A stretch of 64,000 bases of DNA from sequence record NC_052652.1; one strand, 5' to 3'. The notes under the pieces were generated by a model. It saw only the letters and a list, made by a program, of their open reading frames with translations. It had not been told where the DNA came from and made no database searches. The stretch's first letter is position 1, and each line of letters begins with the position of its first letter. Below are positions 18,943 through 21,856 of this stretch, in pieces. Source of the stretch: Escherichia phage vB_EcoM_PHB05. The translations under genes were made by a program, and so were the position numbers.

Positions 18943-18972
18943 TTGACAACATAGCTAGTTATTTGCTAAGAT
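18943..18972 (+). promoter_or_regulatory. promoter TTGACA-N18-TAAGAT
   Basis: Consensus -35 with TAAGAT -10. Confidence 0.45.
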
Positions 18973-19002
18973 AAGCACAAGTTAAACAAAAAGGAGAAAA
19001 CT

Positions 19003-19269
19003 ATGACAGAACGTACTTATGGTAAAGAATTGATTGAGAAGCACGTATTGATTGATAATAAAGGTGGAGCAATCTTTATTTTTGAACCTGAATCAGTTCT
19101 TACTGAAAACGAAAATGGTAGCGTTAGCCTTAAAACAGAAAGTTTGGTAATTGACTTCCTTGCTCTTCTGGATGAAATGGGGCTTCCTCACGAAGAAGAA
19201 GCAGCTATTGCTTTGATTACAGTTCTTCTGGAGAAACGCGAAGCTGGTGAAATGACCCAGTATGCTTAA
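19003..19269 (+). CDS. hypothetical acidic protein
   Basis: 88-aa ORF with AAAGGAG RBS. Confidence 0.45.
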   Translation: MTERTYGKELIEKHVLIDNKGGAIFIFEPESVLTENENGSVSLKTESLVIDFLALLDEMGLPHEEEAAIALITVLLEKREAGEMTQYA

Positions 19270-19276
19270 TATTCAA

Positions 19277-19349
19277 GGTTCCATAGCTCACTGACGAGAG
19301 CGCACACCTCATAAGTGTCGAGGGCAGGGATTGTAACCCTGGGGAACCA
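19277..19349 (+). tRNA. tRNA-like, anticodon CAU (Met/Ile2-type), atypical D and T loops
   Basis: Hand-folded cloverleaf; anticodon loop CTCATAA; T-loop ATTGTAA and D-loop without GG; CCA follows. Confidence 0.35.
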
Positions 19350-19383
19350 CCATTTAAAAGGAGGTGCTATGCATCTCCTATAT

Positions 19384-19469
19384 GCAAGTGTGGTGGAATT
19401 GGTGATACACATTGTGCTTAAAACGCAACGCTTAAATGATTGAGGGTTCGAATCCCTCCACTTGCACCA
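19384..19469 (+). tRNA. tRNA-Leu (anticodon UAA), type II, CCA encoded
   Basis: Acceptor GCAAGTG/CACTTGC, T-arm GAGGGTTCGAATCCCTC, anticodon loop CTTAAAA. Confidence 0.65.
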
Positions 19470-19471
19470 AC

Positions 19472-19577
19472 GCCTAGTAGGGTATTTGGTAATTCCGAGG
19501 CCATCAAAGCCTGAAAAATATGTTAGACCGCTTTGTCTAACTAAATACGAAATATGGTTCGATTCCATAACTAGGCT
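19472..19577 (+). tRNA. 106-nt tRNA-like element, anticodon loop CATCAAA (UCA), 6-bp D-stem with 4-nt loop, 39-nt extra arm
   Basis: Perfect acceptor GCCTAGT/ACTAGGC and canonical T-arm TATGGTTCGATTCCATA; internal 7-bp hairpin GTTAGAC/GTCTAAC. Confidence 0.35.
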
Positions 19578-19610
19578 TCAATTTAAATAATAATTTTTAG
19601 TAAAAATATC

Positions 19611-19639
19611 TTGACATTCACTTAGTTTTTTGTTATAGT
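19611..19639 (+). promoter_or_regulatory. promoter TTGACA-N17-TATAGT inside tRNA cluster
   Basis: Strong hexamers immediately upstream of the tRNA at 19651. Confidence 0.5.
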
Positions 19640-19650
19640 TGCTTTGAAAA

Positions 19651-19729
19651 CGGGGTGTATCTCACCTGACTTCTAATCAGGCGTTAACCGAGTAATTGGA
19701 GTATGCAGGTTCGAATCCTGTCACCCCGA
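19651..19729 (+). tRNA. tRNA-Arg-like (anticodon UCU) without a conventional D-arm
   Basis: Perfect acceptor CGGGGTG/CACCCCG, anticodon arm CCTGA-CTTCTAA-TCAGG, T-arm GCAGGTTCGAATCCTGT, CCA encoded; only 5 nt where D-arm should be. Confidence 0.4.
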
Positions 19730-19751
19730 CCAAAAAGTTTTTAAAAACTAC

Positions 19752-19781
19752 TTGACAAGCAAGATAGTTTTATGTTAGATT
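19752..19781 (+). promoter_or_regulatory. promoter candidate TTGACA-N18-TAGATT
   Basis: Consensus -35, moderate -10. Confidence 0.35.
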
Positions 19782-19796
19782 TAAAGTATGATAACG

Positions 19797-19883
19797 GGAA
19801 GGTAGGGCGCAGCGGTGCGCAACCAGGTTTGAACCCTGGCCCATTGTAGCGATACGGTGATGGTTCGACTCCATTATCTTCCT
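19797..19883 (+). tRNA. tRNA-Ser (anticodon UGA), type II
   Basis: Acceptor GGAAGGT/ATCTTCC, anticodon loop TTTGAAC, long variable arm, T-arm GATGGTTCGACTCCATT, CCA encoded. Confidence 0.65.
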
Positions 19884-19904
19884 CCAAATTCAACTAGGAG
19901 CTTT

Positions 19905-21104: not shown

Positions 21105-21176
21105 GCGGGTATAGTGTTAATGGTAGCATATGAGGTTTCCACCCTCCAGGTGCAGGTTCAAGTCCTGTTACTCGCT
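21105..21176 (+). tRNA. tRNA-Gly (anticodon UCC)
   Basis: Anticodon loop TTTCCAC, T-arm GCAGGTTCAAGTCCTGT, CCA encoded. Confidence 0.6.
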
Positions 21177-21278
21177 CCAAGATTATTTAAATGGAATCGC
21201 TAGAGAAAATTTCTCTTTTCGCTCATGGTTTTCTCCTTCAAACTCTAGCGGTTCTTTTTAAGTGATTTTTAGTTTTAT

Positions 21279-21765: not shown

Positions 21766-21838
21766 TTGATAGTGTGAAGCTGGCGTTTCGAGTGCTTTCA
21801 TAAGGCATTGCGAGAAGAGTTCGATTCTCTTACTATCA
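21766..21838 (+). tRNA. tRNA with anticodon CAU (Met or Ile2)
   Basis: Anticodon loop TTCATAA, T-arm AAGAGTTCGATTCTCTT, CCA encoded. Confidence 0.55.
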
Positions 21839-21856
21839 ACCAAATTACTACAGATT

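What the first reader, a model, noticed from the sequence alone, without database searches (positions are those of the whole stretch)
19472..19577. 106-nt tRNA-like gene with UCA (UGA-reading) anticodon and tRNA-Sec-like architecture
Between tRNA-Leu(UAA) and a promoter lies an element with a perfect 7-bp acceptor stem (GCCTAGT/ACTAGGC) and canonical T-arm, but a 6-bp D-stem with 4-nt loop, an anticodon loop CATCAAA (anticodon UCA; compare E. coli selC loop CTTCAAA) and a 39-nt extra arm containing a 7-bp hairpin. A long D-stem, long extra arm and UCA anticodon are the hallmarks of selenocysteine or opal-suppressor tRNAs; A33 instead of U33 is unusual. It could recode or read through UGA in phage or host genes, act as a decoy, or be a degenerate tRNA.
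Basis: partly seen in the sequence, partly recalled or inferred. Interest (0 to 1): 0.6.

Follow-up and report, generated by a model that had tools for sequence, protein, structure and literature searches.

The report
Oversized phage tRNA-like gene, UCA anticodon
This is a real, conserved, tRNA-shaped RNA gene of a phi92-like E. coli phage. It belongs to an overlooked family of oversized phage tRNAs, and this copy carries an anticodon matching the UGA stop codon, but it is not a selenocysteine tRNA and its function is still unproven.

Summary
Window 19472-19577 folds into a cloverleaf: 7-bp acceptor, Sec-like D arm, a 7-nt loop CAUCAAA (anticodon UCA, A33), a 39-nt extra region with a 7-bp hairpin, a canonical T arm and discriminator U.

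ARAGORN and Rfam do not call it, because the extra region is too long. With that region trimmed, ARAGORN calls a tRNA(tca).

It is one member of a family of 96-110-nt tRNA-like genes in the tRNA clusters of large enterobacterial phages (Justusliebigvirus, rV5-like, PVP-SE1-like, Mydovirus, Henunavirus, one N4-like phage). Across 18 members, 99.7% of stem positions pair and 12 of 20 pairs show compensatory changes, including the tertiary G19:C56 to U19:A56 swap. Anticodon loops differ by lineage: UCA, UUU, UAU, or a 6-nt UCC/GCC loop. A33-U34-C35-A36-A37 is invariant in all UCA-type members.

It is not tRNA-Sec: the acceptor/T branch is 7/5, the discriminator is U73, and the Sec model gives no hit here and stays below threshold in relatives.

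No phage gene has an in-frame TGA, TGA stops are not avoided, and close relatives lack the element through a clean 126-nt indel.

Best reading: a processed, probably aminoacylated tRNA that can pair with UGA (opal reader). A non-decoding role as a tRNA mimic remains a serious rival.

The parts
18943..18972 (+). Promoter-like site (TTGACA-18-TAAGAT), probably driving the small ORF, tRNA-Met, tRNA-Leu and the element as one transcript
   Evidence: Consensus scan. No terminator-like site on the + strand before the element. Co-transcription is inferred, not shown.
19384..19469 (+). tRNA-Leu(UAA) with encoded CCA, ending 2 nt before the element (context)
   Evidence: ARAGORN and Rfam at 57.1 bits. 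The order Met(CAU), Leu(UAA), element is also found in contigs L053, L058 and L209.
19472..19478 (+). Acceptor stem, 5' strand (GCCTAGT)
   Evidence: Pairs with 19570-19576. 4 of the 7 pairs show compensatory changes across the family.
19481..19496 (+). D arm GGTA-TTTGGTAA-TTCC. It can be drawn as 4 bp with an 8-nt loop, or as 6 bp with a 4-nt loop and a U.U mismatch in this copy.
   Evidence: Pairs 11-24, 12-23 and 13-22 covary. RNAalifold adds the two invariant U-A pairs. G19 covaries with C56 of the T loop.
19497..19513 (+). Anticodon arm G-AGGC-CATCAAA-GCCT-G, with loop 19502-19508, anticodon TCA 19504-19506 and A33 at 19503
   Evidence: Sequence. The A-U pair here is G-C in relatives. A33-U34-C35-A36-A37 is invariant in all UCA-type members, including L209, which was found without using the anticodon.
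19514..19552 (+). 39-nt extra region: 5' linker AAAAATAT, a 7-bp hairpin at 19522-19541, and 3' linker TAAATACGAAA
   Evidence: Every family member has a 30-40-nt extra region with a hairpin of different sequence. The flanking motifs A-rich linker and AAUAC are conserved.
19553..19569 (+). T arm TATGG-TTCGATT-CCATA
   Evidence: Pairs 50-64 and 51-63 covary. The T loop is canonical.
19570..19580 (+). Acceptor 3' strand ACTAGGC, discriminator T (19577) and trailer TCA. Most relatives encode CCA at the trailer position.
19475..19600 (.). The stretch that is cleanly absent from other Justusliebigvirus genomes (126-nt indel; boundaries ambiguous by a few nt)
   Evidence: Alignment with phage VivaForever. 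The model finds no copy in the whole genome of J. alia.
19611..19639 (+). Strong promoter-like site (TTGACA-17-TATAGT) for the next tRNA-like gene. It marks the downstream limit of the element's transcription unit.

Best explanation
Positions 19472-19577 encode a genuine, selected, tRNA-shaped RNA. It is the UCA-anticodon member of a family of oversized (96-110 nt) phage tRNAs found in the tRNA clusters of large enterobacterial phages.

**Shown.**
- It has a cloverleaf with an L-shape tertiary pair.
- It carries a conserved long extra region.
- The A33-UCA-A37 loop core is invariant.
- It sits 2 nt after tRNA-Leu.

**Inferred.**
- It is co-transcribed with tRNA-Met and tRNA-Leu.
- Its 5' end is cut by RNase P and its 3' end is trimmed. 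In this copy the host CCA-adding enzyme must complete the end.
- It is charged by a host synthetase that uses U73. Glycine-type or cysteine-type identity is most likely, because sister lineages carry UCC/GCC loops with U73, G1:C72 and C2:G71.
- It then pairs with UGA codons as an opal-reading (suppressor-type) tRNA delivered by EF-Tu, probably at modest efficiency because of A33 and the atypical anticodon stem.

It is not a selenocysteine tRNA. It does not serve a recoded phage genome.
For: - **Structure.** 99.7% of positions pair, and 12 of 20 pairs have compensatory changes, including G19:C56 to U19:A56. RNAalifold returns the same cloverleaf de novo.
- **Specificity.** The family model scores 93.6 bits (E 8e-19) here, although this copy was one of the 18 sequences the model was built from. 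There is one copy per genome.
- **Why detectors miss it.** ARAGORN calls a tRNA with anticodon tca once the extra region is trimmed.
- **tRNA membership of relatives.** rV5-type and Avunavirus-type relatives pass the Rfam tRNA threshold at 35.5 and 33.1 bits. The Hena1 homologue is annotated tRNA-sup(tca).
- **3' end.** Most members encode U73 followed by CCA.
- **Identity coupling (suggestive).** The discriminator tracks the anticodon type: A73 with UUU, U73 with UCC, GCC and UCA.
- **Anticodon conservation.** The UCA core is kept in lineages of three phage groups that are about 70% identical overall. This includes L209, which was retrieved with a pattern that ignored the anticodon; there positions 32 and 38 changed but A33-UCA-A37 did not.
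- **Loop similarity.** The loop differs from the Rfam tRNA-Sec consensus loop CUUCAAA only at position 33. The run A36-A37-A38 is typical of tRNAs that read U-starting codons (established knowledge).
- **Second stop-reading tRNA.** One UCA-type phage contig (L058) also carries a canonical tRNA with the amber anticodon CUA.
Against: - A33 replaces the near-universal U33.
- The anticodon stem has 4 Watson-Crick pairs plus G.G, and there is no nucleotide 26.
- A8/U14 replaces the usual U8/A14.
- The large sister group (PVP-SE1, GAP31, Klebsiella and Proteus phages) has a 6-nt (or 8-nt) anticodon loop. That is hard to reconcile with ordinary decoding, yet it is equally conserved. The family's selected function may therefore not be decoding.
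- No in-frame TGA is found in phage genes. TGA makes up 33 of 218 stops both with and without the element. Interrupting TGAs against orthologues number 2 versus 4.
- The element is dispensable in close relatives.
- This copy has a D-stem mismatch, lacks an encoded CCA, and is not called by Rfam or ARAGORN.
- No expression or charging data exist.
Confidence: 0.45

Rival explanations
1. It is a non-decoding tRNA mimic. The RNA folds, is processed and is perhaps charged like a tRNA, but it works off the ribosome. Possible roles: a decoy or uncleavable competitor for host tRNA-targeting defences (anticodon nucleases such as PrrC, PARIS or ApeA-type HEPN enzymes, or toxins acting on aminoacyl-tRNA), a sink for a synthetase or modification enzyme, or a dedicated aminoacyl donor. 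The anticodon loop would imitate a target, and the extra arm would be a handle or shield.
For: - Non-canonical anticodon arms are conserved across the family: A33 or C33, 6-nt loops in the whole PVP-SE1/Mydovirus group, and 4 bp plus G.G in the others. The body of the molecule is under strong structural selection all the same.
- Anticodon loops switch between lineages on a constant scaffold.
- There are conserved single-stranded linkers and a shared extra-arm loop GAACUAACAGUA.
- The element is an accessory indel.
- No TGA recoding is found.
- Vequintavirus and Justusliebigvirus phages are reported to be sensitive to an anticodon-loop nuclease, Ec2ApeA (bioRxiv 10.64898/2026.01.26.701840).
Against: - No host tRNA other than tRNA-Sec has a UCA anticodon to imitate.
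- The body does not resemble any E. coli tRNA (no match in 5,426 genomes).
- A stoichiometric decoy against a catalytic nuclease is a weak strategy.
- The apparent coupling of discriminator to anticodon, and the encoded CCA, fit a charged adaptor.
- No partner protein is conserved next to it.
Confidence: 0.3
2. It is a decaying or neutral tRNA-derived relic in this phage. The family may be functional elsewhere, but this Justusliebigvirus copy is drifting.
For: - This copy has a U.U mismatch in the D stem, an AT-rich body, and the trailer UCA instead of CCA.
- It has the lowest model score in the family (93.6 bits against 99-121).
- Rfam does not hit it even at E<=10.
- Many close relatives lack it.
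Against: - All stems stay paired through lineage-specific compensatory changes: acceptor positions 4 and 5, D-stem pairs 11-24 and 13-22, and T-stem pairs 49-65, 50-64 and 51-63 differ from relatives yet still pair.
- The copy is 98-100% identical in 29 phage records, and the changes seen fall in the hairpin loop or the trailer.
- The loop core is unchanged.
Confidence: 0.12
3. It is a selenocysteine tRNA: serylated, converted by SelA and delivered by SelB to UGA.
For: - UCA anticodon.
- The loop matches the tRNA-Sec consensus at 6 of 7 positions.
- A D arm with a 6-bp stem and 4-nt loop can be drawn.
- It has a long extra arm.
- Relatives get sub-threshold RF01852 hits.
Against: - The acceptor/T branch is 7/5 instead of 8/5.
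- The discriminator is U73 instead of G73.
- RF01852 gives no hit on this copy, and relatives reach only 36-42 bits (threshold 47), the same range as ordinary tRNA-Ser and tRNA-Tyr.
- No in-frame TGA is found in phage genes.
- The extra hairpin is separated from the anticodon and T stems by 8-nt and 11-nt linkers.
Confidence: 0.02
4. It is not an RNA gene on the + strand. It could be a small protein-coding ORF (some records annotate a 'hypothetical protein' over it) or a minus-strand intrinsic terminator formed by the hairpin followed by a T run.
For: - CDS features overlap it in several GenBank records.
- The scan reports a terminator-like site on the minus strand at 19541-19522.
Against: - Substitutions are compensatory in RNA stems.
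- Family lengths differ by amounts that are not multiples of three (96, 103, 104, 105, 106 nt).
- The whole region is transcribed on the + strand.
- The T run is simply the complement of the conserved A-rich linker.
- The hairpin is weak (4-5 bp) in rV5-type members.
Confidence: 0.02

Closest known systems
Bacterial tRNA-Sec (selC; Rfam RF01852)
   Same: - UCA anticodon.
- The loop is identical to the consensus CUUCAAA except at position 33.
- The D arm can be drawn with a 6-bp stem and 4-nt loop, followed directly by the anticodon arm.
- It has a long extra arm.
- The G19:C56 elbow pair is kept.
   Different: - The acceptor/T branch is 7/5, not 8/5.
- The discriminator is U73, not G73.
- Position 33 is A.
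- The extra region is 30-40 nt with long single-stranded linkers.
- The model score is below threshold.
- Sister lineages carry non-UCA loops.
- No selenoprotein-type in-frame TGA is present in the phage.
selC* tRNA-Cys and allo-tRNAs (Mukai et al. 2017, PMC5389517)
   Same: These are non-canonical tRNAs found while searching for tRNA-Sec. selC* species have U73 with GCA or opal UCA anticodons. Allo-tRNAs have long variable arms and varied anticodons, and were proposed to be suppressors and/or regulatory RNAs. Some occur in phages.
   Different: - Those have 8/4 or 9/3 acceptor/T branches; this one is 7/5.
- They occur in delta-proteobacteria, Acidobacteria and their phages, some with a dedicated CysRS.
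- No sequence relationship was shown here.
Classical E. coli glyT-derived UGA suppressor (tRNA-Gly UCC to UCA). Recalled from established genetics, not tested here.
   Same: The same one-base relationship holds between the family's UCC-type loops (CAUCCA) and the UCA type (CAUCAAA). U73, G1:C72 and C2:G71 are kept.
   Different: That suppressor is a laboratory mutant of a 75-nt canonical tRNA. This is a natural, conserved, 106-nt gene with A33 and a giant extra region.
Suppressor tRNAs of stop-codon-recoded phages (crAss-like, Lak and related gut phages)
   Same: A phage-encoded tRNA whose anticodon matches a stop codon.
   Different: Those phages have many genes with in-frame recoded stops. 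None are found here, and TGA usage is the same with and without the element. Their tRNAs are of canonical size.
Phage T4 stable 'species 1 and 2' RNAs (rnaC, rnaD) in the tRNA cluster. Recalled from the literature, not tested here.
   Same: Small stable RNAs encoded among phage tRNA genes, with tRNA-like ends and no assigned function.
   Different: No homology was tested. The present family keeps a complete cloverleaf with an anticodon arm.

Membership tests
tRNA-Sec (RF01852) | UCA anticodon in a 7-nt loop | tested here: met
   The loop CATCAAA is at 19502-19508. However, position 33 is A, not U.
tRNA-Sec (RF01852) | 13-bp acceptor/T branch (8/5 in bacteria) | tested here: not met
   There are 7 acceptor pairs and 5 T-stem pairs. 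The Sec model has to force mismatched flanking bases into the acceptor stem.
tRNA-Sec (RF01852) | G73 discriminator (needed for serylation) | tested here: not met
   The discriminator is U in this copy and in all UCA-type relatives.
tRNA-Sec (RF01852) | 6-bp D stem with a 4-nt loop and no nucleotide 26 | tested here: inconclusive
   RNAalifold and the Sec model both draw it this way. The two extra U-A pairs never vary, so covariation cannot decide, and this copy has a U.U mismatch.
tRNA-Sec (RF01852) | Score at or above the Rfam gathering threshold (47 bits) | tested here: not met
   There is no hit at E<=10 on this copy. Relatives score 23-42 bits, like ordinary tRNA-Ser (41.5) and tRNA-Tyr (33.7).
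tRNA-Sec (RF01852) | In-frame UGA with SECIS in target genes, and use of SelA/SelB | tested here: not met
   No in-frame TGA candidates were found in the window or in a complete genome carrying the element. SECIS elements and SelB dependence were not tested.
Canonical elongator tRNA (RF00005) | Cloverleaf with a 7/5 acceptor/T branch, supported by covariation | tested here: met
Canonical elongator tRNA (RF00005) | D-loop/T-loop elbow (G18, G19 with Psi55, C56) | tested here: met
   G19:C56 is replaced by U19:A56 in one clade, with both sides changed (5 of the 18 aligned sequences).
Canonical elongator tRNA (RF00005) | U33, a 5-bp anticodon stem, nucleotide 26, and U8/A14 | tested here: not met
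   The element has A33, 4 Watson-Crick pairs plus an invariant G.G, no separate nucleotide 26, and A8/U14.
Canonical elongator tRNA (RF00005) | Detection by Rfam tRNA (29 bits) or ARAGORN | tested here: not met
   This copy is not called. It is called as a tRNA (tca) after trimming the extra region. rV5-type and Avunavirus-type relatives pass at 35.5 and 33.1 bits.
Canonical elongator tRNA (RF00005) | Aminoacylation and ribosomal decoding | not testable with these tools
   This needs charging assays and suppression reporters.
Suppressor tRNA of a stop-codon-recoded phage | Anticodon complementary to a stop codon | tested here: met
   UCA.
Suppressor tRNA of a stop-codon-recoded phage | Phage genes interrupted by that stop codon | tested here: not met
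   TGA accounts for 33 of 218 stops in genomes with and without the element. Interrupting TGAs against orthologues number 2 versus 4. The long in-frame extension that was checked is a separate gene with its own ribosome-binding site and ATG.
Long-extra-arm phage tRNA-like family (defined here; model R1) | 7-bp acceptor; D arm GNNC-UUUGKYAA-GNNC; G-flanked short anticodon arm; A-rich linker, hairpin and AAUAC linker (30-40 nt); canonical T arm; position inside a phage tRNA cluster | tested here: met
   The model scores 93.6 bits (E 8e-19) over its full length, with this copy included in its seed alignment. The alignment is and the anatomy table.

The most novel reading that the evidence does not exclude
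Large enterobacterial phages (rV5-like, phi92-like, PVP-SE1-like and relatives) share an unrecognised class of 'armoured' tRNAs. These have a constant scaffold with a giant extra arm and a deliberately non-canonical anticodon arm. The anticodon is swapped between lineages: Lys-like, Gly-like, Ile-like or opal.

These RNAs would be charged by host synthetases. They would then act in one of two ways:
- As natural opal suppressors that reprogramme UGA termination during infection of standard-code hosts.
- As ribosome-independent decoys or aminoacyl carriers that neutralise tRNA-targeting host defences.
Probability: 0.3. Interest if true: 0.8.

Novelty: new variant of a known kind. Interest (0 to 1): 0.62.

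Why it matters
- **A gap in annotation.** Standard tRNA finders and Rfam miss or mislabel this gene family in well-studied and therapeutically used coliphage groups. GenBank records label it nothing, tRNA-OTHER, tRNA-Lys, tRNA-TERM, 'tRNA-???(atcc)' or a hypothetical protein. A published genome description of a carrier phage lists 16 tRNAs without it (PMC12210895).
- **If it decodes UGA.** A charged UGA reader would be a natural opal suppressor carried by virulent phages of hosts that use the standard genetic code. That bears on how phages manipulate termination, on phage-therapy safety annotation, and on sources of orthogonal tRNA scaffolds that tolerate a 40-nt insert.
- **If it is a mimic.** It would add an RNA-based player to the conflict between phages and tRNA-targeting defence systems.

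Tried and rejected
- **Host or prophage origin.** One scan of 185,579 species genomes with an anticodon-plus-T-loop pattern gave 24 hits, all chance matches or ordinary tRNAs. blastn against 5,426 complete E. coli genomes gave no match.
- **A loose D-arm pattern.** The model found no family member among the 99 of those contigs that were searched.
- **ARAGORN intron mode.** It gave mutually inconsistent calls (Asn with an intron here, Gln in rV5, Met in PVP-SE1). These were rejected as artefacts.
- **A paired 5'/3' linker extending the extra arm.** Possible in Hena1 (AUGU/ACAU) but not conserved in the window copy or in UTK0002, so rejected (inspection).
- **Descent from the phage's own tRNA-Gly(UCC) at 21105-21179.** No specific similarity.
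- **TGA read-through candidates.** All same-frame open-frame pairs separated by a TGA turned out to be adjacent genes with their own ribosome-binding site and ATG, or non-coding frames.
- **Literature.** Seven full-text searches found no description of this family.
- **T5 stable RNA I.** I recalled this from memory as a possible relative, but no T5-like record appeared among the BLAST hits.
Full report
**1. What the window is**

The region is 99.7% identical to Enterobacteria phage ECGD1 and 97-99% identical to other Justusliebigvirus (phi92-like, Stephanstirmvirinae) E. coli phages. The finding lies at the start of a tRNA cluster of 16 ARAGORN-called genes.

**2. Checking the observation**

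- Acceptor GCCTAGT (19472-19478) pairs with ACTAGGC (19570-19576). Discriminator T is at 19577.
- The T arm is TATGG-TTCGATT-CCATA (19553-19569).
- The 7-nt loop CATCAAA is at 19502-19508, with TCA at 19504-19506 and A at position 33.
- The extra region is 39 nt (19514-19552) and holds the 7-bp hairpin at 19522-19541.

Two details need correction. The '6-bp' D stem has a U.U mismatch in this copy. The anticodon stem has only four Watson-Crick pairs, flanked by G.G.

The element starts 2 nt after the CCA of tRNA-Leu(UAA). Promoter-like sites lie upstream at 18943-18972 and downstream at 19611-19639. The single-sequence fold is moderately better than shuffles (z = -2.7).

ARAGORN does not call it. 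Rfam gives no tRNA or tRNA-Sec hit, even at E<=10 over a 701-nt stretch. When the extra region is trimmed in silico, ARAGORN calls a tRNA with anticodon tca. The oversized extra region is therefore what blinds the detectors.

**3. Homologues and covariation**

blastn found the element at 98-100% identity in 29 Justusliebigvirus-like records. It also found it at about 70% identity in:
- Erwinia phages Hena1 and pEa_SNUABM_55 (Vequintavirinae, Henunavirus).
- The N4-like Salmonella phage UTK0002.

In Hena1 the homologue is annotated 'tRNA-TERM / tRNA-sup(tca)'.

Pattern scans of viral and metagenome contigs, plus further BLAST searches, revealed a much larger family. It includes:
- rV5-like Vequintavirus.
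- Avunavirus.
- PVP-SE1/GAP31/4MG Seunavirus.
- Klebsiella, Proteus and Raoultella Mydovirus.
- Several uncultured phages.

The gene always sits inside a tRNA cluster, usually 2 nt after another tRNA.

An 18-sequence alignment gave the following:
- 99.7% of stem positions are paired, against 29-48% when partners are slid.
- 12 of 20 pairs have changes on both sides.
- 0 of 500 shuffles reach these values.

The tertiary elbow pair also covaries. In one clade the D loop UUUGGCAA with T loop UUCGAUU becomes UUUGUCAA with UUAGAUU, so G19:C56 becomes U19:A56. This argues for a genuine L-shaped tRNA fold.

RNAalifold recovers the cloverleaf de novo, with a 6-bp D stem and a 4-nt loop.

A covariance model of the family gave these results:
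- This copy scores 93.6 bits (E 8e-19). Because this copy is one of the 18 sequences the model was built from, that score is partly circular.
- It finds exactly one copy per carrier genome.
- It finds none in a related genome that lacks the element.
- It finds none in about 1 Mb of unrelated viral DNA.

No copy exists in 185,579 representative bacterial and archaeal genomes scanned by pattern. None exists in 5,426 E. coli genomes.

**4. Anatomy of the family**

The constant parts are:
- A 7-bp acceptor starting G1:C72 and C2:G71.
- A8 and R9.
- A D arm GNNC-UUUGKYAA-GNNC.
- An invariant G on each side of a short anticodon stem.
- A 30-40-nt extra region. This is made of an A-rich 5' linker (AAAAUA), a hairpin whose sequence differs between lineages but which is always present, and a 3' linker (U/G)AAUAC(AUA).
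- A canonical T arm.
- A discriminator, usually followed by an encoded CCA.

Several lineages share the extra-arm loop GAACUAACAGUA, whatever their anticodon type.

The anticodon arm differs by lineage:

| Type | Anticodon arm | Discriminator | Where found |
|---|---|---|---|
| A | 4 bp + CAUCAAA (UCA) | U73 | this window, Henunavirus, UTK0002, five uncultured lineages |
| B | UUUUUAA (UUU) | A73 | rV5-likes |
| B' | UUUAUAA (UAU) | U or C | Avunavirus |
| C | 5 bp + 6-nt loop CAUCCA, CAGCCA or CCUCCA (or 4 bp + 8 nt; UCC or GCC) | U73 | PVP-SE1, GAP31, 4MG, Mydovirus, L077 |

Types A and C share the unusual C32-A33. They differ essentially by C36 to A. That is the same step as the classical glyT UCC-to-UCA opal suppressor (established knowledge).

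In all type-A members, A33-U34-C35-A36-A37 is invariant. In L209, positions 32 and 38 changed (AAUCAAG) while this core did not, and L209 was retrieved with a pattern that ignored the anticodon. Several other type-A contigs (L053, L058) were found with anticodon-containing patterns, so they do not count as independent evidence for loop conservation. Hena1, SNUABM_55, UTK0002, the L041-L043 lineage and L209 do count.

**5. Is it a tRNA-Sec?**

No. The defining 8/5 branch and G73 are absent (7/5 and U73). RF01852 gives no hit here. Relatives score 36-42 bits against a threshold of 47, the same range as ordinary tRNA-Ser (41.5) and tRNA-Tyr (33.7) of rV5.

The resemblance is still real in part. 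The Sec model aligns the D arm as 6 bp with a 4-nt loop directly abutting the anticodon arm, and the loop matches the consensus CUUCAAA at six of seven positions.

The nearest published analogues are selC* tRNA-Cys (Sec-like, U73, GCA or UCA anticodon) and the allo-tRNAs (PMC5389517). Those have 8/4 or 9/3 branches.

**6. Does the phage need a UGA reader?**

- In the window, 74 crude ORFs end in TAA 59, TGA 8 and TAG 7. TGA-terminated ORFs have in-frame extensions of at most 20 codons.
- Same-frame open-frame pairs joined by TGA are no more frequent than those joined by TAA or TAG. On inspection they are adjacent genes or non-coding frames.
- In complete genomes, a carrier (PD211) and a non-carrier (J. 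alia) use TAA/TGA/TAG 170/33/15 and 167/33/18 respectively.
- The one long TGA extension is a separate gene with its own ribosome-binding site and ATG, and it is present in both genomes.
- tblastn of each genome's ORFs against the other finds 2 interrupting TGAs in the carrier and 4 in the non-carrier.

So there is no recoding and no TGA avoidance. The element is a clean 126-nt indel among otherwise 97-99% identical phages.

One type-A contig (L058) also carries a canonical tRNA with the amber anticodon CUA (Rfam 61.9 bits). This hints that stop-reading tRNAs may be collected in that lineage.

**7. Interpretation**

*Shown:* this is a selected, tRNA-shaped RNA gene of a previously uncurated family. 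Its UCA core is under constraint.

*Inferred:*
- Co-transcription with tRNA-Met and tRNA-Leu.
- RNase P and 3' processing, with host CCA addition for this copy.
- Charging through U73. Gly-type or Cys-type identity is most likely.
- Pairing with UGA.

I give this opal-reader model about 0.45.

The main rival (about 0.3) is a non-decoding mimic. The argument for it is that the equally conserved type-C relatives have 6-nt loops, all members have atypical anticodon stems, and position 33 is not U in types A and C. These features fit an RNA selected for something other than efficient decoding, such as interaction with tRNA-targeting defences. These phage genera are reported to be sensitive to the anticodon nuclease Ec2ApeA.

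The remaining readings get the rest of the probability:
- A relic in this particular phage: about 0.12.
- tRNA-Sec: about 0.02.
- A small ORF or a minus-strand terminator: about 0.02.

**8. Novelty**

Annotation pipelines have tagged family members inconsistently: none, tRNA-OTHER, tRNA-Lys, tRNA-TERM, 'tRNA-???(atcc)' or hypothetical protein. A published description of the carrier phage BME3 lists 16 tRNAs without it. Rfam 15 has no model that captures this copy. Seven full-text searches found no study of the family.

It is best filed as a new variant of a known kind: a tRNA or suppressor-type tRNA with a new architecture, forming a family.

Noticed in passing
window 19651-19729 (+): A second odd tRNA-like gene lies just after the 19611-19639 promoter. 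It has a 7-bp acceptor (CGGGGTG/CACCCCG) and no D arm: only TATCTCA lies between the acceptor and anticodon stems. The anticodon arm is CCTGA-CTTCTAA-TCAGG (UCU, Arg). A 23-nt extra region holds a CCGA-GTAA-TTGG hairpin, and the T arm is normal. Rfam tRNA scores it 40 bits, but ARAGORN does not call it. Relatives annotate it as tRNA-Undet or tRNA-OTHER.
   Followed up: partly
L058 2791-2865 (metagenome contig NODE_301, which also carries a UCA-type element at 1461-1568): A canonical-size tRNA with the amber anticodon CUA (ARAGORN 'tRNA-Pyl(cta)', Rfam tRNA 61.9 bits) sits in the same tRNA cluster. This phage lineage therefore carries tRNAs matching two different stop codons.
   Followed up: partly
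L003 2496-2603, L004 2501-2608, L058 1461-1568, L197 151-259, L198 151-259, L209 5414-5522: The extra-arm hairpin of these members shares a nearly identical 12-nt loop, GAACUAACAGUA, although the stems differ and the anticodon arms are of different types (UCA or UCC). This suggests a sequence-specific contact or binding site in the extra arm.
   Followed up: no
L060-L063, L197-L201, L077 (Seunavirus GAP31/4MG, Mydovirus, one uncultured phage): This whole clade of the family has a 6-nt (or 8-nt) anticodon loop, C-CAUCCA-G, with UCC or GCC in the anticodon position. It also has a U19:A56 elbow pair instead of G19:C56. The genes are mostly unannotated in the records.
   Followed up: partly
window 19277-19352, 19797-19886 and 21767-21842: Three ARAGORN-called tRNAs are not reported by Rfam at gathering threshold: Met CAU, Ser UGA and Met CAU. 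tRNA-Ser(UGA) instead gets a sub-threshold tRNA-Sec hit of 35.3 bits. This shows that class-II phage tRNAs commonly cross-hit the Sec model.
   Followed up: no
phage records MG065639-MG065689 ('Campylobacter phage' A150, A145, C3 and others): Records labelled as Campylobacter jejuni phages are 93-98% identical to E. coli Justusliebigvirus and rV5-like sequence across the tRNA cluster. The host labels are probably wrong, or the samples were contaminated.
   Followed up: no
window 18943-19781 (+): Near-consensus sigma-70 promoter-like sites (TTGACA with an extended -10) recur in front of individual tRNA or tRNA-like genes, at 18943, 19611 and 19752. The cluster therefore appears to be transcribed from several promoters rather than one.
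   Followed up: no
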